Source of the DNA: Candidatus Dojkabacteria bacterium
Lineage (GTDB): Bacteria > Patescibacteriota > Dojkabacteria > B142 > OLB20
DNA: 64,000 bases
Direction: 5' to 3'
Assembly (NCBI GenBank): GCA_035444565.1
Contig: DAOMOX010000001.1
Coordinates: 386,335 to 450,334 of the forward strand
Part shown: in pieces, positions 24,605-54,000 of the stretch
Layout of the letters: the number at the start of each line of letters is the position of its first letter
How positions within the stretch are numbered: the first letter of the stretch is position 1
Translations under genes and position numbers: made by a program
The notes under the pieces: model-generated
Told to the model about the DNA's origin: nothing
What the model saw: the letters and a program-made list of their open reading frames with translations, nothing else
Database searches by the model: none

Positions 24605-26407
24605 ATGGACAAGTTTCTTGTACTTTACCTTTTATTAATTTTTCCTGCATTTATAGGGATTATTAGATATTTCCTTCAGTTATTGCAATTATGGCAGGTC
24701 AAAGAATATCGAATCGATCGAGTATTATCATACCTTCGATATGAGAAGAAATACTCGCAACTTGGAACGGTATTATTGTTGCTTAAAATCTCCTTTCTAA
24801 TTAATGGAGTTCTTTATATTCTTTATCCAAATGCAGGTTATCTATCATTTACATATATACTTGCTTACGTACTTTACTTCATGCATTTGGAGTGGTTCAT
24901 AACTGATGTAATAAGCCGACGGTTGGTGCGACCAAGAATTAGGAGCATAAGAAACTTACTAATTTCGTCCGCTGTGCTGACGTTCATAGTTTCAATTTAT
25001 GCGAGGATTCTGGTATGGTTCCTACAGTTTGATCTGAATAATGTAAATTTTGTATCTCCAGAAGGACTTACCTTGAAGAATATTGCTGATACGTTTAACC
25101 CTGTCGTGGTTCAAAGTGAAGAGGTGATTCCTCTTTTAACACTGGTAGTCGGTCTAACAATTTGTGTATCCCTATTAATTGATCTGTTAATTCCTTTTTG
25201 GACATTCCTTATGGTGATTGCCACAGCACCACTTTCCTATATCTCAAGGAAGCGTAAGATTATGTCTGCAACGAAAATTATTAGAGAAAAAGGTAATACA
25301 ATGAAAGTAGTTGCGATAACCGGAAGTTATGGAAAAACTACAACAAAAGAATTAATATATGAAATTCTCAAAGATAAGTTCAATGTTGCGAAAACTCCTC
25401 TGAACAACAATACTGCCGTAGGTCTAGCACAAGCTGTAAAGACATATATTAAAGATGATACAGAAGTTTTTGTTGTTGAAATGGGAGCATATAGAAAAGG
25501 TGAAATAAAACAGTCTACAAAAATAGTCTCCCCTGACATAGCCGTCGTAACTGCGCTTTCTCAACAACATGTAAGTTTATTTGGATCTATTGAAAAGATA
25601 TATCAAGCAAAGTTTGAACTAATTGACGGTCTTAAAGACAATGGGGTCGCAATTTTTAACGGTGACGATGAAAAATGCCAAATGATGTCTAGAGAAACAA
25701 GTAAAGAAAAAGTATTTTTCTTCAAAAAGAACTCTGAAGGACTAAAATTCGATAAATTTAAAATGAACACAAGTCAATCGAGTTCAGATGATAAGAATCT
25801 GTACATTGTAAACGTTATCGACCTAGGAGATGTGTTAGATTTACAATTACGATACAAAGGAGAAATTTATCGATTTAAAGTTGGATTGAAAGAAGAAAGA
25901 TTTTCTATTAATCTTGCGGCAGCAGTCCTTGTCTCTTTGCAATTAGGCATGACAATGGACGAAATAATCACAAAAATATCATCATGGAACTATTCTGTAG
26001 AATATCTAAAGGTACACAATGGAATCAATGGCTCTACAGTAATTGATGACGGAAAAAGTTCTAACAAAGAGGGTTTCTTATTAGCCTTAGATTATTTAGA
26101 TAATAAGTTTGAGGGAAACAAATGGGTTATGACTCAAGGAATAATCGAACTTGGAAATGAGAGATATAATACATACAAGGAAATAGCAGAGAGAATCGTA
26201 GAGGTTTCTAATGGCATAATCTGTAATGACGAGGATTTAATCTCTGCCGTTCGGCGTGCTAACTCAAATTTTGTAATATTGAAAGTTAACAATATAAATG
26301 GTTTTGTAGATGCATACAAGTTTAACGTAAAGAAAGGAGAGAAAGTATTACTGGAGGGCACATTCCCCCAGACAATTTTAAATCAGATTATCGTCAATGG
26401 TTCATAA
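24605..26407 (+). CDS. Mur ligase family protein (MurF-like) with N-terminal ~230-aa polytopic membrane domain
   Basis: About 6 TM helices at the N-terminus. ATP-binding 'VVAITGSYGKTTTKE' and 'EMGAYRKGEIKQSTKIVSPDIAVVTALSQQHVSLFGSIEKIYQAKFEL' (MurF-like central domain), followed by a Mur ligase C-terminal domain. Confidence 0.7.
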   Translation: MDKFLVLYLLLIFPAFIGIIRYFLQLLQLWQVKEYRIDRVLSYLRYEKKYSQLGTVLLLLKISFLINGVLYILYPNAGYLSFTYILAYVLYFMHLEWFITDVISRRLVRPRIRSIRNLLISSAVLTFIVSIYARILVWFLQFDLNNVNFVSPEGLTLKNIADTFNPVVVQSEEVIPLLTLVVGLTICVSLLIDLLIPFWTFLMVIATAPLSYISRKRKIMSATKIIREKGNTMKVVAITGSYGKTTTKELIYEILKDKFNVAKTPLNNNTAVGLAQAVKTYIKDDTEVFVVEMGAYRKGEIKQSTKIVSPDIAVVTALSQQHVSLFGSIEKIYQAKFELIDGLKDNGVAIFNGDDEKCQMMSRETSKEKVFFFKKNSEGLKFDKFKMNTSQSSSDDKNLYIVNVIDLGDVLDLQLRYKGEIYRFKVGLKEERFSINLAAAVLVSLQLGMTMDEIITKISSWNYSVEYLKVHNGINGSTVIDDGKSSNKEGFLLALDYLDNKFEGNKWVMTQGIIELGNERYNTYKEIAERIVEVSNGIICNDEDLISAVRRANSNFVILKVNNINGFVDAYKFNVKKGEKVLLEGTFPQTILNQIIVNGS

Positions 26408-27416
26408 AGAAATAACAGACAAAACTTATTGGGAAGAATTCATTTCTAGTAGCGGTTTCAAAACAAGCTTTTTCCAATCATGGGCGTGGGGAGAATTTGA
26501 AAAGTCACTTGGAAAAAATGTAGTCAGAATGGGATTTTATATCGAGGAAAATATTGTCGCAATTGCACAGGTGGTAGAAGTAAATGCAAAAAGAGGAAGG
26601 TTTCTACATGTTCGGAACGGACCAGTAACGGACTGGGACAATGATGAAATTGTCGAGGAACTATTAAAACATCTGAGGATTATTGGGCAGGAGTTTAATG
26701 TCGATTTCTTAAGAATAAGCCCTCATGTTAAACATGAAAATTTTAATGCGAAGATCTGGAAGGAGAGAGGATTTGTTCAAAACCAAATGCATGATGTGGA
26801 TGCAGAGATAACATGGGTATTGGATTTAACGCAGGATATTGTAACCATACTTCAGAATATGCGAAAAAATACTCGATACTATATACGCAAAGCGGAGAAA
26901 GAAGGAGTTAAAATTCATAAAAGTAGAGATATTAATGATTTAGATAAATTTTATAGCGTTTATGACGATACTGTAAAAAGACAACAATGGAAAGCTTACA
27001 GCCATGATTATTTACGGAAAGAATTTGAAATTTTTTCGCGAGAAGGAGAGATTGCAATATATTTGGCCGAGTACCAAGGGAAGATTATTGCAGCATCATT
27101 ATTTATCTATTATCTCGGAGAGACTTTTTATCACCATTCAGGTTCCCTTACTGAATATCAAAAGATACCCGCCTCGTATCTTCTTCAATGGGAGTCAATC
27201 AAGGATTCAAAAGCGAAGGGGATTACCAAATACAATTTCTTTGGAATTGCCAGAGACGATAATTCTAAACATCCATGGGCTGGACTTACTTTCTTTAAGA
27301 AAGGTTTCGGTGGTGAAGAACAAAGATGGATGCATGCTCACGACCTACCAATAAAGCCAAAATACTGGTTTACATACTTCTACGAACTCTTCGAAAGAGT
27401 AAAAAGGGGGTATTAA
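26397..27416 (+). CDS. FemAB-family aminoacyl-tRNA-dependent peptidyltransferase (peptidoglycan bridge formation-like)
   Basis: 'FFQSWAWGEF' N-terminal signature. GNAT-like duplicated fold of the appropriate length (339 aa). 11-nt overlap with the upstream Mur ligase gene. Confidence 0.65.
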   Translation: MVHKEITDKTYWEEFISSSGFKTSFFQSWAWGEFEKSLGKNVVRMGFYIEENIVAIAQVVEVNAKRGRFLHVRNGPVTDWDNDEIVEELLKHLRIIGQEFNVDFLRISPHVKHENFNAKIWKERGFVQNQMHDVDAEITWVLDLTQDIVTILQNMRKNTRYYIRKAEKEGVKIHKSRDINDLDKFYSVYDDTVKRQQWKAYSHDYLRKEFEIFSREGEIAIYLAEYQGKIIAASLFIYYLGETFYHHSGSLTEYQKIPASYLLQWESIKDSKAKGITKYNFFGIARDDNSKHPWAGLTFFKKGFGGEEQRWMHAHDLPIKPKYWFTYFYELFERVKRGY

Positions 27417-28033
27417 TCCCTTTTGCTATGACTTTTATGTGGTTTCCCTGCTTGTAATACATGTCCTAATGTTGTGAATGTTGTACCGAATACAACTCCG
27501 CTTAGGAAAGCGATAAGAAGGAACATATATAAGTAAGCAGATGACTCAGTTTCGGTAGACTTAGGCTTTTCAGTTGTGGTTCCAAAAAGTAAAAATGCTT
27601 CCCCGCTATCTTCTTTGAAAACACCATCAGGACCCATGTATGAGTTTCCCTCTGTTTTGGTGATTCTTAATTGAGAAAGGTTATCTTCTCTTTCAACTGT
27701 GAAAACACCTAAAACATCTCCGTATTCGAACACATCAGTGGCATTAGCAATATCAACACAGACTTTGGTTTCAGTAAATTTATTGTTTTCTTCATCACAC
27801 ACACCAATTGATAGAAGTCCATCATCTCCAGCACTGAAACTTGTGATTGTTCCACCTTGAACTTCAAGTCTAAGCTGGACAGCAGTGCTATTCATATCGG
27901 GACTAGCAAGAACAATGAATGTTTGTAATTCACTCGTTTTTTCACTCTGGGATTCCACCGTAACAGCTTGTGAGCTTTGTGTAAAAAGTGTTAAAGATAC
28001 TACTGTAGCTAGGGCAAAGAAGAACTTTTTCAT
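27413..28033 (-). CDS. secreted protein with C-terminal membrane anchor, paralog family member A
   Basis: Signal peptide 'MKKFFFALATVVSLTLFTQSSQA'. Conserved core '...GGTI...IGVCD...C.DIA' shared with 28053-28670 and 39516-40154. C-terminal TM followed by 'KPHKSHSKRD'. Confidence 0.6.
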   Translation of the reverse strand: MKKFFFALATVVSLTLFTQSSQAVTVESQSEKTSELQTFIVLASPDMNSTAVQLRLEVQGGTITSFSAGDDGLLSIGVCDEENNKFTETKVCVDIANATDVFEYGDVLGVFTVEREDNLSQLRITKTEGNSYMGPDGVFKEDSGEAFLLFGTTTEKPKSTETESSAYLYMFLLIAFLSGVVFGTTFTTLGHVLQAGKPHKSHSKRD

Positions 28034-28052: not shown

Positions 28053-28670
28053 CTAATTAATTTGGTCTTTTGGTTCTTTACTTGAAAAGAAAATAATCAC
28101 AAGGAAAGCACCTACTAACACTACTAAGATACCAATAAGCAAAACAAATGGCAAGGAATTTGATTCGTTGACCACTTCTTCCTCGATAATCGGTTCTGGT
28201 AGTTCCTCTAGGGTATTGATTGAGTATGATTCAAGAACAACTCCACTCTCATTTATCAAATCTCCGTTAATTGTAAGATATGCATGATCAGGATTCGCGG
28301 AGAAAACTGGTTCAATCCCGGGTTGTGTTTCCACTGTGACTTTTAATAGAACTTGATCAGTTTGTATCAAATCTTTTTTTGCAGCAATTTCTATACAGAT
28401 GTTCTGCTCAAAATAGGATTCGTTATTGTCGCATACTGGGATATAACTAAGATTTACATCATCACTATAAGCTACGTCAATAATCGTTCCTCCATCTACT
28501 TTTACACGAAATTGCACAGCCGAACTATCTTGGGTAGGTTCTGCAAGGATGTTGTAGACTTTAGTGTTATCTTGTTCGCTGACTAATTCTGCAGTTAATG
28601 CATTCACTCCAACAGTGAAGAACAATACCGAGAATAGAATTGAGAGACTTAGTGAAAAAAGAAAACGCAT
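28053..28670 (-). CDS. secreted protein with C-terminal membrane anchor, paralog family member B
   Basis: Signal peptide. 'VKVDGGTIIDVAYSDDVNLSYIPVCDNNESYFEQNICIEIA' aligns with member A. C-terminal TM 'LLIGILVVLVGAFLVIIFF' followed by 'SSKEPKDQIN'. Confidence 0.6.
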   Translation of the reverse strand: MRFLFSLSLSILFSVLFFTVGVNALTAELVSEQDNTKVYNILAEPTQDSSAVQFRVKVDGGTIIDVAYSDDVNLSYIPVCDNNESYFEQNICIEIAAKKDLIQTDQVLLKVTVETQPGIEPVFSANPDHAYLTINGDLINESGVVLESYSINTLEELPEPIIEEEVVNESNSLPFVLLIGILVVLVGAFLVIIFFSSKEPKDQIN

Positions 28671-28725
28671 ATTAAATAGTTAAAATATATATAAATCAGT
28701 ATAAACAGAATATTTTATAAAGAAA

Positions 28726-28754
28726 AGACCCTTCTTTCTGAAGGGTCTTTTTTA
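28726..28754. terminator. bidirectional rho-independent terminator between the beta-helix giant gene and paralog B
   Basis: AGACCCTTC-TTTCT-GAAGGGTCT flanked by A-run and T-run on both sides. Lies immediately 3' of the minus-strand 1380-aa gene. Confidence 0.6.
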
Positions 28755-28771
28755 ATTCTATTTAACTTACT

Positions 28772-31700
28772 TTAAAGAGCACAAGAAGCTTTATTGTATC
28801 TTTGTGCAAAACTTTGGAAGTCAACTATGTCGACCTTTCCTAGTTTGTCTACATCTTTTCCTCCACACTCTCCATAGCTAATATGGTCAGTTTCCGTATC
28901 ATCACAAAGTTTCTGATAGTAGGAAGCAAAACCAACTTGGTATCCACCAAAATCGTATATGCTAAACCATCCATCTCCATTCACATCCGCTGGTCCACAA
29001 ATGAATCCTACTAATGGGTTTGTCGGTGTAACTGTTGGTTCCTCTGATACTATTGGAGTATCGCTAGGAACAGGAGTATCACTTGGGACAGGAGTATCAC
29101 TTGGTACAGGTGTATCGCTTGGTATAATTGTCCCTGTAGGTGTATCACTAGGTATAATTGTTCCTGTAGGTGTTAGTGTAGGTGTTGGTGTGTTAGAACT
29201 TGTGACATCAGGTCCGGTTACTGTGAAATCCGAGGTGCAGGTATTGATTTTTGTATTGGTACCTGTCTGCACTTCCGCTGTATTTGTGATTACATCACCT
29301 TTTTTACCCTTGATTTTCATAACATATGCAATTCTCTTAACTCCTTCAGGTACTTTACACTCTAGGTAGTTACCTGTTATCAAAGCTGGAGTATCACCTG
29401 GAGAGACATCCTCTTTGGTCATGAGGAAGTAGAAACCTCCGATTAATAATACTACACCTGCTATTACTAATCCCCCTAGATAAGGTTTTTCTTTTAGTGT
29501 TGAATTAGTAATACTATCTTTATTTTTGTAAAGAATGTAATAGGTTACTCCACCAGATAGTATTGAGAAGAGTATGAAACTAAACAGTACTGATCCGCGG
29601 GAAGTATAGACATCGGATATTCCTAGTACCGCTGATTGAACTTCTTGTGTCTTGAGTTCACAATATTTTGGTTTTGATACTAGTTCCATCTTTTCACTTA
29701 AGTCATCTCTTACGAGTACTGTTCCGTCAGGTCCAGGTGCTAGATCGTTCAAGACGACCTTGTATTTGACCTGTTCACCAGTCCATAGTTTGCTTGGTAA
29801 TTCCTGAACTTTTCTACATGTCAAAGCAGTAATGGTTGCAGGAGTGGGTGTTATTGATGGGCTAGGTGTTGTTGTTGGCTTCTGAATCACATTAAATGTG
29901 TATGTAGGACAGTCAGTGGTCATTCCACTACTGACGACTCTGGAATTAACTAAGATTGGAGTTCCAGGCGTTACATTGTCTTTAACTTTCAAATTAATTG
30001 TTAATGCGCCTCCAGTTAAGTTACATGTGTACTTATCTCCTGCCTCTGTCTTAGCAAAAGTACAAGCAGGGTTAGGGTTAGAGCCCATGTCTGTAGGTAC
30101 TTCTAGTTGAGTCGGTATGAAGAAATGTAGTGTGTGAGAGACTCCTTCATTGAAAGGTACTTTTGTATTTAGGTATGTCTGAACACCAATTCTGTTTCCG
30201 GGATAAGGATCATCATAATTGGTGTTTAATGTAATATTCCTACATTCAGCAGGTAAGTCTAACCTATCCAAATCGCTTACCGAAGTACTGGTTGATGCAG
30301 CTTCTTCTAAACTTGCTTCAGATCCATAAGAGACTGGAATCTGGAGGCTTTCAATGTCGGTGGATGCTTTTGTTGTAGTTGTATCTCTTTCGCATCTCTC
30401 AAAAGGAGTGGTTGAGTTAGGATTGAAATTACAAATGTAGTTCTCAATTACACCCAAGAACTGTGTTAAATATGACTGACTCATTTTCTTTTGGGTTCCT
30501 GAGTCAAAGACGTATGAATTTGATGAGAAATAATTATCTTTTGAAACATTTCTATCATCACTTTTCCATGGGGAACATGTGCTTACTCCTGGTTCCGTCG
30601 GGTAGGTGACACATTCGATTGACCAAAAGATATATGGTGGTGTTTTTGCATCCAAGACGTTTGTAAGGGTACGATATGCACCTTCTCTATAGTAAGTGGT
30701 GGTTTCAATCGATTGGATAGTGCTTACATTAGGTGCACCGACCTTACTCGCTTCCGTAAATGTCCAGTCTGTACAACTTGCAACATCTTGATTATCTAGA
30801 ATGTCACAACTCCTTGTATAGACTGTTTTCCCATCTTGAGAGAGGGCGGTATAGTAAAGGATGTTCCTTGTTAAATCATAATTTTCATACTTGCCGATTC
30901 TGTGGTCAATATCTAGTGATCGTAATTTTGAAATCACTAAATCGCCTGTTTGGATTTTTAGTGATTTTACTGAATGTTTTGTCCAAACTTCATCTTGGTA
31001 AGTGAAGTTGTTACACTTTGTAAAATCAACACCATCTGCTTTACTCTTGTCCATATTACAGCTTCTGTAGTAGAAGTTTTCTCCAGCACTATCGAGTACT
31101 ACTTGGGAGAAGTTGTCTGCTTGTGCTACAGGAGTTACAGGTGGCGTTACTACAACAGTAGGAGGTACAGTCGTTGTAGGAGGTATTGTGGTAGCAGGTG
31201 GAGCAACCGTAGTGGTAACAGCTTGAGCTAGTACCTCGGCCTGAATATTATCGTAATAATAACCCAGATTGTATGTATAATTCATTTCAGGCTTTAGAAC
31301 TATTCTAAAGCTTGTCGTATTTATATCTGTAGATGCAGGAATCTTAAGATCAAAAGTGTAAGTCTTCCAGCTTGCCGTCAAGGCTGTCTTTGGAATAGGA
31401 ATTTGTTGTAACCATCCAGACCCAACAGGGTGTTCTCTTTGTATGTATAGACCTTCTAGAGCTGGTGGTGGTTGATGATCACTGCTAGTGCTATGTGCTT
31501 TTGCGTTGAATTTTACTCGAATTGTTCTTCCACTTAAGTTTTGTCCTGTTTCAATCCAATGAGTAGAGAAATCAGTCTTGGTTTTATCACCATCTAGTTT
31601 TCTACCCAATGTAATATATTTCTTTCCATCGGAGCAAGGACCCCATTGATCGCAATCATGTACCTGAGTAAATGAAGTATCTACTCCTGCTCCATATGAC

Positions 31701-32914
31701 CAGCTCTTGTAGTCACCCCACTCAAAGGAAGAGTTCAAGATGATAGGTTTGAGTTCGGGAGAGCAATCACCTCCCGGACATGAGTTCGGTCCCCCATAAA
31801 CACCCAAATCAGATCGAGAGCCGTTCAAATCTTTAATGTTTGGGTCTCCGGCGTCGATGGCAGGGGAACCGGCTTGCAGTGCGAAGTTTGTTGCGCTTAC
31901 AAATTTAGGGTCTGCGTGGAGTGAGTCACAAAATTCATTAACACCGCAACTAGTGCCTTCCCCAGCATTCCCAAAGGTTAAATTGTACGCAAATTTGTCA
32001 TTTTCCTTAAAACCTGGAGTTAGTAAGTTGTATCCTCCGATCCCAAAGCCAAAAGAATTGTCAGTGTTTTTCTTATTATTGGTTAAGATGTTATTTAAAA
32101 CTGTAACACTTGGGTTATGAACGGCACCCTGATATATAGTAATACCTGATACTACATTAGAAGAAATAATATTATTTGTGATTAATGCATTTGAATTTTC
32201 AGACAAATAAATTCCATCATTTGGATTCGAAGTAATGATGTTATTAAAAATAGTTGTTTTGGAATTCTGATATGTTCGAATCGCAGCACCAATATTGTTA
32301 GAGAATGAGTTGTTTCTAATGGTGGCCTTGGCATTCATAGAAATTGAAATTCCATATCCAAGTCCACATGTATTCGTATTACTCTCAAAACAACTATCCT
32401 CATCTGTTTTCATTCCTATTATTTTTAAACCTTCAATATTAATGACTCCTCCATGTACGACAATACCTGAAAGTGTATGAGTACTATTAGTCCCATCAAG
32501 AACTACAGAACCTTCGCCTTTTAATGTTAATGTTCTGATAGAGGTTTCAGGAATGAAAATAAAAGCTTTGAACTTTTTTTCAATGGATTCCCCATACGGT
32601 GTATAATTATATGGTGTATATCCTGTTCTTTTGTATGTCCCAGCTTTCAATAATATAGTATCGCCACTTTTTGCTGCATCAACTGCTCTCTGGATATTAT
32701 CACCACCTACATATTGACAACCATTTTGTCCTGCTGTTCCTGTTGCACAAACAGTAATCAGGTTAACAGGCGTAGTCGCAGCTTCACTATCCTCCTGCTC
32801 TGTCCGCTCCGACAAATACCGAGCCAAAACTAGTGTGAAAATCATGAATAAGAAGAGGAACAAGACTAGCAATATAGTTACTATTTGCCTTCTTTGGAGA
32901 TTTGTCTTAAGCAC
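28772..32914 (-). CDS. giant surface protein with N-terminal signal anchor, right-handed parallel beta-helix (pectin-lyase-like), two internal TM helices, Pro/Thr-rich tandem linker and C-terminal dockerin-like domain
   Basis: 1380 aa. N-terminal TM 'IVTILLVLFLFLFMIFTLVLA'. Beta-helix repeats 'NNIITSNPNDGIYLSENSNALITNNIISSNVVSGITIYQG'. Mid-protein TMs 'VLFSFILFSILSGGVTYYILY' and 'LGGLVIAGVVLLIGGFYFLMT'. Repeats '(PSDTPV)n/(PTGTIIPSDT)n'. C-terminus 'DVNGDGWFSIYDF' plus 'DVDKLGKVDIVDFQSFAQRY' matches two dockerin Ca-binding repeats. Confidence 0.8.
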   Translation of the reverse strand: MLKTNLQRRQIVTILLVLFLFLFMIFTLVLARYLSERTEQEDSEAATTPVNLITVCATGTAGQNGCQYVGGDNIQRAVDAAKSGDTILLKAGTYKRTGYTPYNYTPYGESIEKKFKAFIFIPETSIRTLTLKGEGSVVLDGTNSTHTLSGIVVHGGVINIEGLKIIGMKTDEDSCFESNTNTCGLGYGISISMNAKATIRNNSFSNNIGAAIRTYQNSKTTIFNNIITSNPNDGIYLSENSNALITNNIISSNVVSGITIYQGAVHNPSVTVLNNILTNNKKNTDNSFGFGIGGYNLLTPGFKENDKFAYNLTFGNAGEGTSCGVNEFCDSLHADPKFVSATNFALQAGSPAIDAGDPNIKDLNGSRSDLGVYGGPNSCPGGDCSPELKPIILNSSFEWGDYKSWSYGAGVDTSFTQVHDCDQWGPCSDGKKYITLGRKLDGDKTKTDFSTHWIETGQNLSGRTIRVKFNAKAHSTSSDHQPPPALEGLYIQREHPVGSGWLQQIPIPKTALTASWKTYTFDLKIPASTDINTTSFRIVLKPEMNYTYNLGYYYDNIQAEVLAQAVTTTVAPPATTIPPTTTVPPTVVVTPPVTPVAQADNFSQVVLDSAGENFYYRSCNMDKSKADGVDFTKCNNFTYQDEVWTKHSVKSLKIQTGDLVISKLRSLDIDHRIGKYENYDLTRNILYYTALSQDGKTVYTRSCDILDNQDVASCTDWTFTEASKVGAPNVSTIQSIETTTYYREGAYRTLTNVLDAKTPPYIFWSIECVTYPTEPGVSTCSPWKSDDRNVSKDNYFSSNSYVFDSGTQKKMSQSYLTQFLGVIENYICNFNPNSTTPFERCERDTTTTKASTDIESLQIPVSYGSEASLEEAASTSTSVSDLDRLDLPAECRNITLNTNYDDPYPGNRIGVQTYLNTKVPFNEGVSHTLHFFIPTQLEVPTDMGSNPNPACTFAKTEAGDKYTCNLTGGALTINLKVKDNVTPGTPILVNSRVVSSGMTTDCPTYTFNVIQKPTTTPSPSITPTPATITALTCRKVQELPSKLWTGEQVKYKVVLNDLAPGPDGTVLVRDDLSEKMELVSKPKYCELKTQEVQSAVLGISDVYTSRGSVLFSFILFSILSGGVTYYILYKNKDSITNSTLKEKPYLGGLVIAGVVLLIGGFYFLMTKEDVSPGDTPALITGNYLECKVPEGVKRIAYVMKIKGKKGDVITNTAEVQTGTNTKINTCTSDFTVTGPDVTSSNTPTPTLTPTGTIIPSDTPTGTIIPSDTPVPSDTPVPSDTPVPSDTPIVSEEPTVTPTNPLVGFICGPADVNGDGWFSIYDFGGYQVGFASYYQKLCDDTETDHISYGECGGKDVDKLGKVDIVDFQSFAQRYNKASCAL
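29055..29168 (-). repeat. in-frame tandem nucleotide repeats (18-nt and 30-nt units) encoding Pro/Thr/Ser/Asp linker of the 1380-aa protein
   Basis: Plus strand 'ggagtatcgctaggaaca / ggagtatcacttgggaca / ggagtatcacttggtaca / ggtgtatcgcttggtataattgtccctgta / ggtgtatcactaggtataattgttcctgta'. Confidence 0.8.
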
Positions 32915-38635: not shown

Positions 38636-39499
38636 TTAAATTGGGGCTTGGATGTTATTGTTCTCACCAAATCCAAAGAAATATCCTTTCTCAAGCGAGA
38701 CCTTTTCGATATCGATAGTATAGTCAACAACTTCAAGTCGATTATTAACTGTTATCGTGGCTTTCTTTGTAACTTGTTGGCTAAGTTCATTAATGGTTTT
38801 ACTACTGGTTACAATCTGTTTGTAGTCAGTACCTCTAGTCGATTCTTGAATAGATTTCTCTTGTTGAGATTTTACTTCATCTACCACCCTAATCAGTTTT
38901 GATTGGCCAAATCTTGGTTTACTATCTAGGTTCCAGTTTCCAGAAGAATTCAAAACATAAAGGTTGTCGGCAATATGGATTGTGGTAGCAGGAGGTTTAG
39001 AAATGAATGAGCTTTCACAAATTTCGGCATAATAACTATTATATTCCTTGTCAGGGTTATCGCTTTCTAGATAATTTCCATAGCAATTACGGTCTTTGTA
39101 AGAAGTAAAAACTGAATTAGATTTAAAATTGTTCTTTTCAAGAGCTACAGTTCTTGCAGTATCTATCATTTCGTCTACATCGCAATTTCGGAAACAGTCT
39201 AATCTTGCATTATCTGTTTCTTCTGGAGACTGAGTTGGTTTCAGTGATGGCTTAATGGTCGCTACTGGAGAAGTATTTGCGCTCCTAGTTGGTAATACAA
39301 GAGGAGTTGTAGGCTTGTCGTTTCCGGCTGATGCTAGAGCAACAATGAGTAGTAAAACATTTAACACGATGCTTATTACAAGCATTATCGCTAAATTTCG
39401 TGGCTTCAGGATAGTAGTTTTTAAGCTGGGCAATTCTGTTCCAGAATGATTTTCGTCAGTAGCAATATTGTTTAGTTCAATTTTTGAGGAAATTGACAT
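38636..39499 (-). CDS. hypothetical N-terminally anchored extracellular protein
   Basis: TM 'LAIMLVISIVLNVLLLIVALASAG' followed by a P/T/S-rich linker and a Cys-containing globular region. Immediately downstream of paralog C. Confidence 0.5.
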   Translation of the reverse strand: MSISSKIELNNIATDENHSGTELPSLKTTILKPRNLAIMLVISIVLNVLLLIVALASAGNDKPTTPLVLPTRSANTSPVATIKPSLKPTQSPEETDNARLDCFRNCDVDEMIDTARTVALEKNNFKSNSVFTSYKDRNCYGNYLESDNPDKEYNSYYAEICESSFISKPPATTIHIADNLYVLNSSGNWNLDSKPRFGQSKLIRVVDEVKSQQEKSIQESTRGTDYKQIVTSSKTINELSQQVTKKATITVNNRLEVVDYTIDIEKVSLEKGYFFGFGENNNIQAPI

Positions 39500-39515: not shown

Positions 39516-40154
39516 TTATAAAAGTTCTCGTCTTTTATCTAGTAAGAAAATTTTAATTGCAACAGCTAAGCTCACTATTCCGGAGATAAGAATGGCACCA
39601 CCTAGTATGCCTCTGCTTGGCATATAATCTGATAGTGCTGTATTTGGAAGAACTGTAACATTACTACTTGTTCCGAAAACATATGATCCTAATACGCCAC
39701 TCTTGGGTTCTGTGAGGACACTTCCGGTTACATAACCATTTTCTTCACCACCTTCTATTGTGAATGTACCACCTGATGAGCTCAGGCTTGCAACAGTGAT
39801 TGAGCCTAGTGCTGTTCCGTTTGTGATGGGGCTGCTTGTACTTGCAAGGTCTACACATACTTCGTATTTAGTAGTGCTTATAGATCTTGAGGTAGATCCG
39901 TTTGAGTCACAGACTCCTATTGACAGTAGATTCCCACCTGATCCGCTAAAACTAACTACTTTTGCATTATTAACGATAAGTCGAATTTGTATAGTAGTTG
40001 TTGGCGTGTTTGAGTTTGAAGTGATATTTATTGTTTTGTTCCCTGAGACTGGAAATGTTCCGCTACCAGGGGACAGAGTCAATGCTGACAAACTTACAGG
40101 GTTCAGAACCAAAGCTGAAAGTGTCAATATTATGGTGATTAATAATTTTTTCAT
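39516..40154 (-). CDS. secreted protein with C-terminal membrane anchor, paralog family member C
   Basis: Signal 'MKKLLITIILTLSALVLNPVSLSA'. 'VVSFSGSGGNLLSIGVCDSNG...YEVCVDLA' aligns with members A and B. C-terminal TM 'ILGGAILISGIVSLAVAIKIFLL' followed by 'DKRRELL'. Confidence 0.6.
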   Translation of the reverse strand: MKKLLITIILTLSALVLNPVSLSALTLSPGSGTFPVSGNKTINITSNSNTPTTTIQIRLIVNNAKVVSFSGSGGNLLSIGVCDSNGSTSRSISTTKYEVCVDLASTSSPITNGTALGSITVASLSSSGGTFTIEGGEENGYVTGSVLTEPKSGVLGSYVFGTSSNVTVLPNTALSDYMPSRGILGGAILISGIVSLAVAIKIFLLDKRRELL

Positions 40155-51069: not shown

Positions 51070-54000
51070 GTGACTAAAATCATGCCAAATGAGTATAAAG
51101 AAGTAGAAGAAGTTCTCTCAAAAGCGCTAAAGTCTGATCAGGATTTGAGACCTGATGCCAAAAGTGCAATGGATGAGAGAGTTAATAATACTATTCATAC
51201 TTTAAAAAACATGAAAAACGAAAACGTTCCAGAGAAAATTAGTTTTTTCTCAAAAGTTAAACTTGGTTTTTTTGCTACAAAAAAAAGAAGATTTGCCACA
51301 TTTTCTGTTGTCTCTCTTTTGTTACTCCCACTTATCATCATTACGCTTTTTGTTTTGACGAATGGGAATATTCCGATTTTCAGAAGGCAAGAAAATCTTA
51401 AAGCGGCAAGTGTCGATTTTGCGGCATCTAAAATTTCTGGAGATGGTGTGTCTCAAGATTCAGAATTTATCCTAAGAACTAAAGCGATTTATACAAATGT
51501 TGAATTGCAGGAAAAATTGAAGATTAGTCCTGCAATTAACTATGAGGTTAAAAAAATTTCCGAGGGATATAAGATATCACCGTTATCAAATCTTCAAAAA
51601 AATGTGCTTTATGAAGTCAAATTAGAGGATAGTGATGTGGATTTGGATTGGAACTTCCGTGTAGAACCCGGGTTTACAGTATTAGGTCACTCTCCAGCAG
51701 AAAACGCCCCAATCAATTCAGTGATTGAACTTAACTTTAATTATTCGGATATAGATTTAGATAGTATTCGTTCTGCATTCAAATCTAACCCTGTTATAAA
51801 TATTAAAGAAATTAAACAAGAAGGAAGAACTGTGATATTGATACCAGATAACCCTCTAACACTGAATTCTTCGTATTCATTGTATTTAAATAATACTGTG
51901 AAGAGAGAAAACGGTGAAAGTTTAAGTGTTCCGTATCAAGCTTATCTTTCTACCTATGACTCATCACAAGTGGATAACTACTCTCCTTCGATTTATTTCG
52001 GATCAACGGAAGGAAGAGAGAAATTGTTAGGATCGGAAAGAAAGGTTGCATTCAGCGTTTCTAATTATGTGTCGAATGTAAAAGGCAACGTGAAGATGTA
52101 TAAAGTTAAAAATGATATGTTCCTTGAGGCCACTAAAGAGTACTTTTCAGTAAATAGTTGGTATTCAACTTACCGTTTGGAAAGTAAGTACTTAGAAGAA
52201 ATAAAATCTGAAGAATTCACTCCTTCTCCCGATGTAGTTGTTACAGTTCCTGAAATTAATATGGGCGAAATCATTTACGTAGAAGCAAGTTACATGGGGG
52301 TTGTAAGAGGTGGTTATTATTTAACTACTGACTTATTAAGTCATATGACTTATATGCAAAATGAATTGGTATTAAATGTCTTTGATTCTCAAGGCAAAAT
52401 AATAAATGAAGGGACTGCAGATATTATTTACAAAGATAATAATAATCAAGTTCAATCAAAGTCTTTTCCAATTACAGGGATAGTTAGAATTCCTAAATCC
52501 GACTTGCCAGATCAGGATTCCATTTTGGGAGCACTGATTAATGCCAAGGGTGATAGGTTAATGTTAAGTATGACATCAAACTACCCACCAGGAACATATT
52601 GGTTTGGAGGTGATTACGAAGGTGATTCAGAATATAACAAAAACATCTTTAGTTACTTTATGATGGATAAACCTGTGTACACTGAAGGAGATAAGGTCAG
52701 ATTCAAGACCCAGTTTAGGTATTCAGAAGATTTTACTAGCTTCCAACCGTATGATGTTTCTGGACTTGAGTACGTGATTTACTATGGTGGGTCAGTTGTG
52801 GGTAAAGCGAAGCCCGAATATAACAAAGAATTAGGGTATATTACAGGAGAGTTCAACATACCAGGTGTGGGTGATAGCTATATGTCTGGGTCAATTCAGG
52901 TTGTGAGGGGTAATAACGTCATAGCTACAAAAAATTTCCCTATTCGGGAATATGTTAAACCCCAATATACGGTTTCTATTAGTGTTGATGATTCTAATAA
53001 AATATATCACCCAGGTGATGAAGTTGAATTTGCCGTAAAGGTGAATGATCTTGCAGGGAACCCATGGTCGGGGGGTGAAATCCAGGCAGACTTCGGATAT
53101 ACGGAGATGTATCGTTACTCTGGAATGAATATGACCAATTTGACTGCAAATAGCTATTTGACCAAATCAGTTGACAAAAAAACAGTTAAACTAGACTCAG
53201 GCGGCCATGTAAATCTTGTCTACAAAATAACAAACCCTGAAGTATCAGATACAAGCGACTTCTTCTCATCTGTCTTGCAGGTCAACATTGACAAACATGC
53301 AACAAAATCATATGGCGTTAAGTCAACCTTAGGAGACATTACTGTAATCGCAGAAACAACTGACAATAATGTGAGAAAGAAGTTGGGTGAAGAGGTTAAA
53401 ATCCAAGTCAAGACAGTAGATGTGCAAACTTTGACAGGTGTACCAAGTACTATAGACAAGATTGAGGTGGTTCGCCATTGGTCCGAGAAAATTCCAAGGA
53501 CATATTACAATTCAACTACACGCACCAACGAAACTACCTATGACTATGTTCAACATGAGGACCTGATAGAAACTCAGTACAATCTTAAAACTGATGATAA
53601 CGGTAATTTGGAATTGGTGAAGAAATATGACCAAGATGGTTCATACTTCTTTAGGTTTGAATTCAAAGATAGGAACAATAGACTGGTAAAATTCTATTCT
53701 TCGCTTTTCTACCTAAATGGTGATGACGATGATAGCAGTATACAGGACAATTCTCCAATAATTTACACAGATAAAAGTGTTTATGAAATTGGTGATAAGG
53801 TCAACGTTAGAGTTGAATTCCCAGATAATTTCTTGGATGGACGAGAAGCTTACATCTTCGTTTATAAAGATAAGATATACATGGAAGAGAAAATCTCGAT
53901 TACAGAGAATGTTTATAACTATTCCTATGATTTAACAAAAGAGCTTAGTCCGCAGGCAGGGATTCGGTTAGTTTATACTTTGCCAGTGAGCGACTTTGGT

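What the first reader, a model, noticed from the sequence alone, without database searches (positions are those of the whole stretch)
28772..32914. Giant parallel beta-helix surface protein ending in a dockerin-like tandem calcium-binding repeat
The C-terminal ~70 aa contain 'ADVNGDGWFSIYDF' and 'DVDKLGKVDIVDFQSFAQRY'. Together these read as the two-segment type-I dockerin signature (DxNxDGxxxxxD twice). Upstream are a pectin-lyase-like beta-helix (candidate polysaccharide-binding or cleaving module), two internal TM helices and a (PSDTPV)n/(PTGTIIPSDT)n linker of the kind seen in cellulosomal scaffoldins. A dockerin implies a cohesin partner; see the next finding. A cohesin-dockerin display system in a genome of this apparent type would be notable.
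Basis: partly seen in the sequence, partly recalled or inferred. Interest (0 to 1): 0.6.

Follow-up and report, generated by a model that had tools for sequence, protein, structure and literature searches.

The report
Dockerin-like tail on Dojkabacteria surface protein
A 1380-residue membrane-anchored surface protein of an ultra-small Candidatus Dojkabacteria bacterium ends in a cysteine-framed variant of the calcium-binding dockerin module. Next to it are small membrane proteins predicted to have the matching cohesin fold, which suggests, but does not prove, a simple protein-docking system on the cell surface.

Summary
ORF 28772..32914 (-) encodes a 1380-aa protein with these parts in order:
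- an N-terminal signal-anchor
- a right-handed beta-helix (Pfam Beta_helix, 61 bits)
- a weak CBM4/9-like domain
- Cys-paired repeats
- a transmembrane hairpin
- a tandem-repeat Pro/Thr/Ser linker
- a ~75-aa C-terminal two-loop calcium-binding module

Alone, the module fails Pfam Dockerin_1 (14.9 bits against a cutoff of 22.9), and its second loop has Leu at ligand position 5. It nevertheless belongs to a family of at least 162 sequence clusters, almost always at the extreme C-terminus of varied extracellular proteins, with four conserved Cys. Of 76 members, 48 hit Dockerin_1 and 43 hit NCBIfam 'GC-type dockerin'. AlphaFold2 gives pLDDT 94, and 5 of the model's 7 PDB fold matches are dockerins.

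One of the three small paralogs was modelled. It has a beta-sandwich whose top PDB matches are nearly all cohesins, but there is no sequence-level link to cohesins. In a related genome one such domain is fused to a beta-helix/dockerin protein.

Best reading: a divergent non-cellulosomal dockerin, possibly docking to cohesin-like anchors. Binding is untested. Dockerins in these bacteria have been reported before, so this is a new variant of a known kind and of moderate interest.

The parts
28772..32914 (-). Whole ORF, 1380 aa, multi-domain surface protein of a Candidatus Dojkabacteria bacterium
   Evidence: ORF list. A 100% identical partial NCBI protein is named as Candidatus Dojkabacteria.
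32813..32881 (-). N-terminal hydrophobic segment, aa 12-34, preceded by K/R residues: signal-anchor or long signal peptide
   Evidence: Kyte-Doolittle maximum 3.19. It depends on the GTG start, and the P0003/P0004 gene calls begin at Met24 instead.
31757..32767 (-). Right-handed parallel beta-helix domain, aa ~50-386 (Pfam core aa 170-283 = nt 32066-32407)
   Evidence: Beta_helix 1.3e-16, 61 bits; NosD 1e-9. TIGR03804 and a weak choice_anch_Q hit. No PDB sequence relative.
31217..31756 (-). Beta-sandwich, weakly CBM_4_9-like, aa 387-566
   Evidence: CBM_4_9 at 18.3 bits, below the 25.9 cutoff. Homolog P0004 carries a precomputed PF02018 hit.
31130..31222 (-). Pro/Thr/Val-rich linker 1, aa 565-595
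   Evidence: Read directly from the sequence.
30272..31129 (-). Region of Cys-paired repeats (Y-x-R-x-C ... C-x-x-W, at least 3 copies), aa 596-881, fold unknown
   Evidence: Regex hits at aa 615, 699 and 764. No Pfam or PDB hit. Conserved in P0002-P0004 and in the L002 protein.
29828..30271 (-). Unassigned extracellular region, aa 882-1029
   Evidence: No Pfam or PDB hit.
29216..29827 (-). DUF11-like Ig-type domain that appears to be interrupted by the TM hairpin, aa 1030-1233
   Evidence: With the hairpin deleted, the construct matches PF01345 positions 14-101 of 114 across the junction. E 9.8e-5, 23.1 bits, cutoff 24.6.
29531..29596 (-). TM helix 2, aa 1107-1128 (out to in)
   Evidence: Hydropathy. 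It is followed by the K-rich loop YKNKDSITNSTLKEKPY.
29417..29479 (-). TM helix 3, aa 1146-1166 (in to out), which places the C-terminal 210 aa outside the cell
   Evidence: Hydropathy. Orientation is inferred from the positive-inside rule.
29018..29203 (-). Pro/Thr/Ser/Asp linker 2 with (PTGTIIPSDT)2 and (PSDTPV)4, aa 1238-1299
   Evidence: Tandem Repeats Finder: 18-nt x3.9 at 29055-29124 and 30-nt x2.2 at 29108-29173.
28775..28999 (-). C-terminal Cys-framed dockerin-like module, aa 1306-1380. Cys at 1306, 1337, 1350 and 1378.
   Evidence: 162 related clusters. 123 of 139 full-length matches lie within 10 aa of a C-terminus. The four Cys are conserved. Dockerin_1 in 48 of 76 members and dockerin_GC in 43 of 76. 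AF2 pLDDT 94.2. Best PDB fold match is dockerin 2y3n_B.
28952..28987 (-). Ca-binding loop 1, DVNGDGWFSIYD, canonical at positions 1, 3, 5 and 12
   Evidence: This is the only stretch matched by Pfam Dockerin_1 and the EF-hand families in this sequence.
28820..28855 (-). Ca-binding loop 2, DVDKLGKVDIVD, degenerate: Leu at position 5
   Evidence: At position 5 the family has D 51, N 16, S 5, and L once, which is this sequence.
28721..28753 (.). 14-bp-stem hairpin followed by a T-rich run, just after the giant gene's stop: terminator-like
28053..28670 (-). Small paralog 1, 205 aa: signal peptide, ~125-aa all-beta domain, linker, C-terminal TM helix. Candidate cohesin-like partner.
   Evidence: AF2 pLDDT 83.7. 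Top PDB Foldseek hits are almost all cohesins: best E 1.3e-3, probability 1.0, target-normalised TM up to 0.54. No Pfam or PDB sequence hit.
27413..28033 (-). Small paralog 2, 206 aa, same architecture
   Evidence: 32% identical to paralog 1, E 8e-16. Adjacency is conserved in L001, L002 and L004.
39516..40154 (-). Small paralog 3, 212 aa, ending in LPNTA, a TM helix and a KRR tail
   Evidence: BLASTP E 9e-10 to paralog 2. LPNTA(L/I)SDYMP is invariant in about 17 orthologs.

Best explanation
The gene encodes an exported, membrane-anchored, multi-domain surface protein of a Candidatus Dojkabacteria (Patescibacteria/CPR) bacterium.

A large ectodomain is held on the outside of the cytoplasmic membrane by a TM hairpin. 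It comprises a right-handed beta-helix, a CBM-like sandwich, Cys-paired repeats and Ig/DUF11-like domains.

After the hairpin the chain re-emerges outside the cell. A flexible Pro/Thr/Ser repeat linker then carries a ~75-aa C-terminal module.

That module is a divergent dockerin. It has two duplicated calcium-loop-plus-helix ('F-hand') segments, each framed by a Cys pair, and is probably disulfide-stabilised.

It works as a protein-docking handle. The most likely receptors are the single-domain, cohesin-like, membrane- or wall-anchored proteins encoded immediately downstream (two) and 6.6 kb away (one).

The same module ends many other secreted Dojkabacteria proteins: proteases, beta-helix enzymes, a GH5 cellulase, CBM proteins and protease inhibitors. 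The system would therefore serve to hold or organise extracellular enzymes and adhesins at the cell surface.

Shown here: the domain layout, family membership and predicted folds. Inferred: calcium binding, disulfides, membrane topology and the cohesin-like partnership.
For: Anatomy.

The module is a real, mobile C-terminal domain:
- 162 clusters at E<=1e-3.
- 123 of 139 full-length matches lie within 10 aa of the C-terminus of proteins 70-1700 aa long.
- Six invariant columns (Cys10/41/54, Asp25/58/69 of the 84-aa segment) and Cys82 in 73 of 76 members.

Dockerin kinship:
- Pfam Dockerin_1 in 48 of 76 members, best 8.9e-12.
- NCBIfam dockerin_GC in 43 of 76, best 7.2e-7.
- The family profile hits solved dockerins 2y3n_B (1.6e-4), 4fl4_A and 5nrm_B.
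- The AF2 model has pLDDT 94.2, pTM 0.82 and no helix N-terminal to loop 1.
- 5 of the 7 Foldseek PDB matches are dockerins. The best is 2y3n_B: target-normalised TM 0.65, rmsd 3.2 A.
- Beta-helix homolog P0005 carries an above-threshold Dockerin_1 (32.2 bits) in the same terminal position.

Cargo is typical of dockerin-borne proteins: Beta_helix, Peptidase_S8, FG-GAP, PD40, Kazal, GH5, CBM6/35, trypsin and GDSL.

Partner:
- The small-paralog model matches cohesins of types I, II and III and the C. perfringens cohesins in nearly all of the top 20 hits.
- The arrangement of module-bearing gene(s) followed by two small paralogs recurs in L002 and L004.
- The L004 986-aa protein fuses a cohesin-like domain (A2 HMM 7.6e-25) to a beta-helix plus dockerin-like protein.
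- Paralog 3 has a conserved LPNTA sortase-type signal. From my own knowledge, this resembles the single-cohesin, sortase-anchored ScaE of Ruminococcus flavefaciens.
Against: - The window sequence itself is below the Pfam Dockerin_1 and NCBIfam dockerin_GC cutoffs (14.9/22.9 and 11.7/29 bits).
- Loop 2 lacks the position-5 ligand.
- EF-hand families and EF-hand proteins score as well as dockerins at sequence level.
- The Foldseek E-values for the module are not significant (0.25 at best).
- The cohesin-like assignment is fold-only, at E about 1e-3 and TM about 0.5. No sequence bridge was found even with profiles.
- The recurrent adjacency sits in a block of conserved housekeeping synteny (GluRS ... 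FemAB, Mur ligase), so it is weak evidence of a functional link.
- Module genes elsewhere (L005-L013) have no cohesin-like neighbour.
- A terminator-like hairpin separates the giant gene from the paralogs.
- The giant protein is already membrane-anchored, so docking is not needed to retain it.
Confidence: 0.55

Rival explanations
1. The module is a dockerin-fold or EF-hand-like calcium-binding domain that does not bind a cohesin. It would act as a Ca2+- and disulfide-stabilised structural cap, or as a binder of some other ligand such as host or own cell-wall glycan or another surface protein. The small paralogs would be unrelated beta-sandwich membrane proteins.
For: - Most non-cellulosomal dockerin-like modules have no known partner (PMC9012536, citing Peer et al. 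2009).
- There is no sequence-level cohesin signal in the paralogs.
- Many module-bearing genes have no cohesin-like neighbour.
- The giant protein is anchored by its own TM hairpin.
- EF-hand families score nearly as often as dockerin.
Against: - The modelled paralog's fold matches are overwhelmingly cohesins rather than other beta-sandwiches.
- A cohesin-like domain is fused to a dockerin-bearing protein in L004.
- The module sits at the extreme C-terminus of diverse cargo behind flexible linkers, which is the classic docking-handle layout.
Confidence: 0.3
2. The module is a C-terminal sorting or secretion tag, analogous to other C-terminal anchor domains. It would be recognised by an export or attachment machinery rather than by a cohesin-like receptor.
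For: - The module is strictly C-terminal in 123 of 139 proteins with unrelated cargo.
- NCBIfam names the nearest model a 'dockerin domain-anchored protein'.
- There is a weak 'choice-of-anchor Q' hit in the beta-helix region, a class of domain named for appearing with alternative C-terminal anchors.
Against: - The module is a well-folded 75-aa domain with calcium loops and four Cys, unlike short sorting signals.
- In this protein it lies outside the cell, after a TM hairpin that already fixes the protein in the membrane.
- No processing machinery was identified in the window.
Confidence: 0.1
3. The dockerin-like motif is a chance or degenerate remnant with no function in this particular protein.
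For: - Loop 2 has Leu at ligand position 5, unique in the family.
- The sequence fails the curated thresholds.
Against: - The module is conserved at 85-95% identity in P0002, P0003 and P0027, while the linkers and N-terminal parts diverge.
- All four Cys and both position-1 and position-12 Asp residues are kept.
- The AF2 model is highly confident.
Confidence: 0.05

Closest known systems
Dockerin modules (Pfam PF00404 Dockerin_1), as in cellulosomal enzymes of Acetivibrio/Clostridium thermocellum and Pseudobacteroides cellulosolvens (PDB 2y3n_B, 1ohz_B, 5nrm_B)
   Same: - About 70 aa at the extreme C-terminus, behind a Pro/Thr linker.
- Internal duplication of a 12-residue D-x-N-x-D-G-x5-D loop followed by a helix, with no preceding E-helix.
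- Borne by extracellular hydrolases and binding proteins.
- The predicted fold superposes best on dockerins.
   Different: - Four conserved Cys frame the two repeats.
- Positions 10-11 of both loops are hydrophobic (I-Y and I-V in this sequence). From my own knowledge, type I dockerins have Ser-Thr there.
- This copy has a 6-residue GGYQVG insertion in helix 1, present in 10 of 76 members.
- Loop starts are 44 residues apart, against 36 in the family consensus.
- Loop 2 has Leu at position 5.
- It is below Pfam threshold.
- The bearer is itself a TM-anchored protein.
NCBIfam NF041540 'GC-type dockerin domain-anchored protein'
   Same: A Cys-containing, C-terminal dockerin variant used as an anchor domain. 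The model aligns over positions 1-65 of 67 with residues 10-79 of the module, and 43 of 76 family members hit it at E<=0.01.
   Different: Scores are low: best E-value 7.2e-7, and 11.7 bits for this sequence against a cutoff of 29. The Dojkabacteria family is therefore a distinct, uncurated relative and not a member. I could not read the model's definition, and no paper uses the term.
Non-cellulosomal cohesin/dockerin pairs and single-cohesin anchoring scaffoldins (for example Ruminococcus flavefaciens ScaE, sortase-anchored; archaeal and ANME cohesin/dockerin proteins)
   Same: - Single cohesin-like domain proteins fixed to the cell envelope. Two have a C-terminal TM helix and one has an LPNTA sortase-type signal.
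- Many dockerin-bearing proteins against few cohesin-like ones.
- There is no requirement for cellulose degradation (PMC9012536).
   Different: - The cohesin-like proteins here have no detectable sequence similarity to Pfam Cohesin or to PDB cohesins.
- There is no multi-cohesin scaffoldin, X-module or CBM3 in the window.
- Binding is untested.
- The ScaE comparison rests on my own knowledge, not on a tool result.
EF-hand pair proteins (for example Entamoeba histolytica CaBP1, PDB 1jfj; calmodulin)
   Same: Paired D-x-N-x-D-G loops with a helix after each. These give the best sequence-profile E-values in the PDB, 9.6e-6, and EF-hand Pfam families hit 43 of 76 members.
   Different: - No helix precedes loop 1 in the model.
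- Fold search returns dockerins, not the thousands of EF-hand chains in the PDB.
- The module is extracellular, C-terminal and Cys-framed.
Dockerin-domain protein SEML1_0315 of the Saccharibacterium Southlakia epibionticum (PMC10633639)
   Same: A dockerin-annotated cell-envelope protein in a Patescibacterium, proposed to target host glycans or promote adhesion.
   Different: It comes from a different phylum-level lineage, and its sequence relationship to this family was not tested here.

Membership tests
Dockerin (Pfam PF00404 Dockerin_1) | The sequence reaches the curated gathering score of the Dockerin_1 HMM | tested here: not met
   14.9 bits against 22.9, with only loop 1 aligned. No hit at E<=1 on the full protein. 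By contrast, 48 of 76 family members hit at E<=0.01, best 8.9e-12.
Dockerin (Pfam PF00404 Dockerin_1) | Two tandem segments, each a 12-residue Ca-binding loop (ligands at positions 1, 3, 5, 9, 12) followed by a helix, without an E-helix | tested here: met
   Loop 1 is canonical. Loop 2 keeps positions 1, 3, 9 and 12 but has Leu at position 5. The AF2 secondary structure shows helices after each loop and none before loop 1.
Dockerin (Pfam PF00404 Dockerin_1) | Three-dimensional dockerin fold | tested here: inconclusive
Dockerin (Pfam PF00404 Dockerin_1) | Ca2+-dependent binding to a cohesin module | not testable with these tools
   No co-folding or experiment was possible.
NCBIfam NF041540 GC-type dockerin | The sequence reaches the curated cutoff of 29 bits | tested here: not met
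   11.7 bits, E 0.26, aligned over 65 of 67 model positions. 43 of 76 family members hit at E<=0.01.
EF-hand pair | Helix-loop-helix: an E-helix precedes each Ca loop | tested here: not met
   There is no helix in residues 1-22 of the module model, before loop 1 at residues 14-25. The module is preceded by a Pro/Thr linker. Fold search does not return EF-hand proteins.
Cohesin (Pfam PF00963), for the small paralogs | Sequence match to the Cohesin HMM or to solved cohesins | tested here: not met
   No Cohesin hit for any of 16 members at E<=10. The profile against PDB gives only TM-helix noise. The profile search of 5.8 billion proteins finds only unannotated ~200-aa Dojkabacteria proteins.
Cohesin (Pfam PF00963), for the small paralogs | Cohesin beta-sandwich fold | tested here: inconclusive
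   The model has pLDDT 83.7. 19 of the top 20 Foldseek PDB hits are cohesin entries, at E 1.3e-3 to 2e-2, probability 0.92-1.0 and target-normalised TM 0.30-0.54. Only paralog 1 was modelled.
Cellulosome system | Scaffoldin with multiple cohesins (usually with a CBM3) plus dockerin-bearing glycoside hydrolases | tested here: not met
   The window holds only single-domain cohesin-like proteins and one dockerin-like module. The cargo of the family is mixed, and GH5 was seen once in 77 proteins.
Right-handed parallel beta-helix (Pfam PF13229; pectate-lyase-like superfamily) | Beta_helix HMM above the gathering score | tested here: met
   61 bits against 25.9. NosD 38.6 against 23.6. TIGR03804 21.1 against 19.45.
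Right-handed parallel beta-helix (Pfam PF13229; pectate-lyase-like superfamily) | Identifiable catalytic residues or membership of a characterised lyase or hydrolase family | tested here: not met
   No specific pectate-lyase or glycoside-hydrolase family was hit. No PDB sequence relative at E<=0.1.

The most novel reading that the evidence does not exclude
Dojkabacteria, which are ultra-small CPR bacteria, run a minimal cohesin-dockerin surface-display system that is invisible to sequence searches. In this reading, dozens of secreted or anchored hydrolases, proteases, inhibitors and adhesins per genome end in a disulfide-framed dockerin. They dock onto just three conserved single-domain cohesin-like receptors. 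Two receptors are held by a TM helix and one is sortase-linked (LPNTA) to the wall. Together they would assemble the cell's host- or substrate-attacking surface. The receptor family would be a new, highly divergent branch of the cohesin fold.
Probability: 0.3. Interest if true: 0.7.

Novelty: new variant of a known kind. Interest (0 to 1): 0.45.

Why it matters
CPR/Patescibacteria have tiny genomes and are thought to depend on contact with other cells or on scavenged polymers, yet most of their surface proteins are unannotated.

If the Cys-framed C-terminal module is a working dockerin and the ~200-aa anchored proteins are its cohesin-like receptors, the result would:
- give a simple, testable rule for how Dojkabacteria arrange proteases, beta-helix enzymes and binding proteins on their surface;
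- annotate at least 160 protein clusters at once;
- add a disulfide-stabilised cohesin-dockerin pair to the toolbox of orthogonal protein-assembly modules.

If only the dockerin-like fold holds, this is one more non-cellulosomal dockerin of unknown partner, which is ordinary.

Tried and rejected
- Pfam on the full protein gave no dockerin hit at E<=1. Only the isolated tail gave a sub-threshold hit.
- A single-sequence PDB search of the tail gave only an EF-hand protein at E 0.74.
- The search for related loci with the broad family alignment A3 failed because it had no conserved 7-10 column stretch. A sub-family alignment (A4) was used instead and returned only 9 loci.
- Attempts to link the small paralogs to cohesins by sequence all failed: profile against PDB, Pfam at E<=10 on 16 members, and a domain-only profile search of 5.8 billion proteins.
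- PDB sequence searches for the beta-helix and for aa 387-1012 found nothing, so the catalytic or binding function of the ectodomain stays open.
- I looked for a sortase (TLxTC motif) in the window to go with the LPNTA signal and found none.
- The 287-aa gene next to paralog 3 has no Pfam or NCBIfam hit.
- Peer et al. 2009 could not be read, and no paper mentions 'GC-type dockerin'.
- Model coordinates are not exposed, so Cys-Cys distances and loop geometry could not be measured and the disulfide pairing is undetermined.
- I considered the 'operon' reading and rejected it, because a strong terminator-like hairpin lies between the giant gene and the paralogs.
- I considered conserved gene order as evidence of a functional link and discounted it, because the whole neighbourhood is collinear.

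Full report
**1. Observation**

A 100% identical partial protein in NCBI is named 'right-handed parallel beta-helix repeat-containing protein [Candidatus Dojkabacteria]'. The window therefore comes from a CPR/Patescibacteria genome of about 36% G+C.

Both quoted peptides are present. DVNGDGWFSIYD is aa 1310-1321 and DVDKLGKVDIVD is aa 1354-1365. The first is a perfect D-x-N-x-D-G-x5-D loop. The second is not, because position 5 is Leu.

The strict pattern occurs only once in 20,908 aa of window ORFs of at least 100 aa.

**2. Anatomy of the protein**

From the N-terminus:

- **aa 12-34:** a hydrophobic segment preceded by K/R residues. It is a signal-anchor or a long signal peptide.
- **aa ~50-386:** a right-handed beta-helix. 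Pfam Beta_helix scores 61 bits and NosD 38.6 bits. TIGR03804 and a weak 'choice-of-anchor Q' hit also appear.
- **aa 387-566:** a beta-sandwich with a sub-threshold CBM_4_9 match, 18.3 against 25.9 bits.
- **aa 565-595:** a Pro/Thr linker.
- **aa 596-881:** repeats of the form Y-x-R-x-C...C-x-x-W, with no Pfam or PDB relatives.
- **aa 882-1029:** unassigned.
- **aa 1030-1233:** a DUF11-like Ig-type domain that seems to be split by two TM helices (aa 1107-1128 and 1146-1166). When the hairpin is removed in silico, the joined halves match PF01345 across the junction: positions 14-101 of 114, E 9.8e-5, 23.1 bits against a cutoff of 24.6.
- **aa 1238-1299:** a linker made of (PTGTIIPSDT)2 and (PSDTPV)4. 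It is visible as 30-nt and 18-nt DNA tandem repeats at 29055-29173.
- **aa 1306-1380:** the C-terminal module.

By the positive-inside rule, both the large ectodomain and the C-terminal 210 aa lie outside the cell. This is an inference from sequence. The 30 Cys, mostly in close pairs, fit an extracytoplasmic protein.

**3. What the C-terminal module is**

On its own it is below threshold. Dockerin_1 scores 14.9 bits against a cutoff of 22.9, with one loop aligned. NCBIfam dockerin_GC scores 11.7 against 29. A PDB phmmer search gives only an EF-hand protein at E 0.74.

An exhaustive phmmer search of 1.84 billion representatives with the last 84 aa nevertheless finds 162 clusters at E<=1e-3, 21 of them at E<=1e-10. 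In 123 of 139 full-length matches the module lies within 10 residues of the C-terminus, in proteins from 70 to 1700 aa long.

An alignment of 76 members (A3) gives this consensus:

xCGxxDxNxDGxxxIxDFxxFAxxYxKxCxDxxxxxxxCGxKDxNxDGKIDIxDFxSFAxRYxxxSCxx

The module is therefore a duplicated loop-helix unit, with each copy bracketed by Cys. Three Cys are invariant and the fourth is present in 73 of 76 members. Asp at positions 1 and 12 of both loops is essentially invariant.

Evidence that the family is dockerin-like:

- 48 of the 76 members hit Pfam Dockerin_1 at E<=0.01, best 8.9e-12. EF-hand_1 is hit by 43.
- 43 of the 76 hit NCBIfam 'GC-type dockerin domain-anchored protein'.
- The family profile finds both EF-hand proteins (1jfj, 9.6e-6) and solved dockerins (2y3n_B 1.6e-4, 4fl4_A, 5nrm_B, 1ohz_B and others).

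Sequence alone therefore cannot separate dockerin from EF-hand. Predicted structure leans toward dockerin. AlphaFold2 with the A3 alignment gives pLDDT 94.2 and pTM 0.82, with no helix before loop 1, which is the 'F-hand' arrangement of dockerins. Foldseek against the PDB returns only seven matches. Five are dockerins, and none is an ordinary EF-hand protein. The remaining two are an engineered calcium-sensor construct and an unrelated p97 chain. The best match is 2y3n_B, with target-normalised TM 0.65 and rmsd 3.2 A over 67 columns. The E-value of 0.25 is not significant, which is usual for so small a domain, so I rate the fold test as inconclusive but favourable.

Three further points:

- A beta-helix homolog, P0005, has an above-threshold Dockerin_1 (32.2 bits) at the same terminal position.
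- The window copy is atypical within its own family. Leu at loop-2 position 5 occurs in 1 of 76 members, against D 51, N 16 and S 5.
- It also carries a GGYQVG insertion in helix 1, shared by 10 of 76 members.

**4. What carries the module, and in which organisms**

Named relatives are Candidatus Dojkabacteria, or unclassified or 'Saccharibacteria'-labelled MAGs. One of the latter (assembly CAYQRB01) shares the Dojkabacteria gene order.

Module genes often sit in tandem arrays: L005, L007, L008, L009, L010 and L012.

Cargo domains in 77 module-bearing proteins were:

| Pfam family | Members |
|---|---|
| Beta_helix | 5 |
| FG-GAP | 4 |
| Peptidase_S8 | 3 |
| PD40 propeller | 3 |
| Kazal inhibitor | 2 |
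| Pectate-lyase-like | 2 |
| Pel9A-like beta-helix | 2 |
| GH5 cellulase | 1 |
| CBM6/35 | 1 |
| Trypsin | 1 |
| GDSL lipase | 1 |
| BNR | 1 |

Most of the 77 have no Pfam domain at all. This mixed set of extracellular enzymes and binders, each ending in the same small domain behind a linker, is the layout expected of a docking or anchoring handle.

**5. The candidate partners**

Three paralogs of 205, 206 and 212 aa lie at 28053-28670, 27413-28033 and 39516-40154. Their relatives are only unannotated ~200-aa Dojkabacteria proteins.

The AlphaFold2 model of paralog 1 (pLDDT 83.7) has a signal peptide, an 11-strand all-beta domain, a linker and a C-terminal TM helix. Only paralog 1 was modelled.

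In the Foldseek search against the PDB, 19 of the top 20 hits are cohesin entries. They include type I (5nrk_A, 2ccl_A), type II (5g5d_A, 2bm3, 1qzn, 3ghp) and the C. perfringens cohesin-like modules (2jh2, 2vo8). E-values run from 1.3e-3 to 2e-2, probability from 0.92 to 1.0, and target-normalised TM reaches 0.54.

No sequence method links the paralogs to cohesins. The cohesin assignment is therefore fold-level and moderate.

Context gives three further hints:

- In the more distant genomes L002 and L004, the slot between GluRS and FemAB again holds one to three module-bearing proteins followed by two small paralogs. The whole region is collinear, so this is weak evidence of a functional link.
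- The cargo in that slot changes while the TM hairpin, linker, module and paralogs stay. L002 has no beta-helix, and L004 has an S8 peptidase, an unknown protein and a beta-helix protein.
- In L004 a 986-aa protein is a head-to-tail fusion. It reads signal peptide, cohesin-like domain (A2 HMM E 7.6e-25), TM helix, then a second TM helix, beta-helix and dockerin-like module. This is a Rosetta-stone-type link between the two families.

Paralog 3 and about 17 of its orthologs end in an invariant LPNTA(L/I)SDYMP motif, a TM helix and a KRR tail. That is the form of a sortase substrate. From my own knowledge, the single-cohesin anchor ScaE of R. flavefaciens is attached the same way. No sortase motif is present in the window.

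Points against a simple partnership:

- A terminator-like hairpin separates the giant gene from the paralogs.
- Module genes elsewhere have no cohesin-like neighbours.
- The giant protein is already fixed in the membrane.

**6. Mechanism**

Best explanation, confidence about 0.55 overall. I put about 0.85 on 'dockerin-family fold and module' and about 0.4 on 'binds the cohesin-like paralogs'.

The protein is a membrane-hairpin-anchored surface enzyme or adhesin. Its tethered, Ca2+- and disulfide-stabilised dockerin-like tail docks to cohesin-like anchors on the same envelope. This would place it in a surface assembly with the many other module-bearing secreted proteins.

Rivals:

| Explanation | Confidence |
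|---|---|
| Calcium-binding cap or ligand binder with no cohesin partner | 0.3 |
| Sorting or anchoring tag | 0.1 |
| Non-functional remnant | 0.05 |

**7. Comparison with known families, and novelty**

Non-cellulosomal cohesin and dockerin modules are known across bacteria and archaea (PMC9012536, citing Peer et al. 2009). A dockerin-domain envelope protein has been reported in a cultivated Saccharibacterium (PMC10633639). Dojkabacteria have been flagged as carbohydrate degraders in digester MAG surveys (PMC7038595). NCBIfam already curates a Cys-containing 'GC-type dockerin'.

A dockerin-like tail in a CPR protein is thus not a new kind of thing. What is apparently undescribed:

- this particular four-Cys family centred on Dojkabacteria;
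- its combination with a TM hairpin that splits an Ig-like domain;
- the sequence-cryptic cohesin-like anchored paralogs.

I rate it a new variant of a known kind, with interest 0.45. The module, its architecture and a plausible partner family hold up. The 'type I' label, the claim that the signature occurs twice and the degree of surprise do not.

Noticed in passing
window 39516-40154 (-): The third cohesin-like paralog ends in VLPNTALSDYMP, a TM helix and DKRRELL. The LPNTA(L/I)SDYMP motif is invariant in about 17 orthologs whose domain is only ~25% identical. This is a candidate sortase (LPXTG-type) wall-anchoring signal in a CPR bacterium. No TLxTC sortase motif is present in any window ORF.
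   Followed up: partly
window 29216-29827 (-), aa 1030-1233 of the giant protein; also L002:3263-7813: A DUF11-like Ig-type domain appears to be interrupted by a two-helix TM hairpin. With the hairpin deleted, the construct matches PF01345 across the junction at 23.1 bits. The same unit (half-domain, 'VLG(I/V)S', TM-TM, 'KE(D/E)V(S/T)P', half-domain) occurs twice in the 1516-aa L002 protein.
   Followed up: partly
L004:14187-17147 (+): This 986-aa protein is an end-to-end fusion. A complete small cohesin-like protein (signal peptide, domain, TM helix) is joined to a signal-anchored beta-helix protein that ends in the dockerin-like module. It shows how the internal TM hairpins in these surface proteins can arise by gene fusion.
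   Followed up: yes
window 51070-56391 (+): A 1773-aa bacterial alpha-2-macroglobulin-like protein (Pfam A2M, A2M_BRD, MG2, bMG10). This is a large protease-trapping surface protein in a very small genome.
   Followed up: no
window 28721-28753: A perfect 14-bp-stem hairpin flanked by A- and T-runs, 19 nt after the giant gene's stop codon. It looks like a bidirectional intrinsic terminator and argues against simple co-transcription with the downstream paralogs.
   Followed up: partly
window 32845-32914 (-): The start codon is uncertain. The GTG at 32914 has no obvious Shine-Dalgarno sequence upstream. Gene calls for homologs P0003 and P0004 begin at the internal Met24, which would remove most of the N-terminal hydrophobic segment. 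Export of this Cys-rich ectodomain argues for the longer form.
   Followed up: partly
window 30272-31129 (-), aa 596-881: At least three repeats of Y-x-R-x-C-(10-14 residues)-C-x-x-W, with no Pfam or PDB relative. More copies occur in the L002 homolog. This may be an undescribed disulfide-stapled repeat, perhaps propeller-like.
   Followed up: no
window 38636-39499 (-): A 287-aa predicted membrane protein directly downstream of paralog 3, with no Pfam or NCBIfam match. It is conserved next to the paralog in L001.
   Followed up: no
window 24605-27416 (+): A Mur-ligase-family gene and a FemAB-family gene converge on the small paralogs, overlapping paralog 2 by 4 nt at 27413-27416. This peptidoglycan cross-bridge machinery flanks the surface-protein slot in every related genome examined (L001, L002, L003, L004).
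   Followed up: no
L005:7916-14113; L007-L010, L012: Dojkabacteria genomes hold tandem arrays of two or three genes that each end in the same Cys-framed dockerin-like module, for example three Pel9A-like beta-helix proteins in a row. This suggests local duplication of module-bearing surface enzymes.
   Followed up: partly
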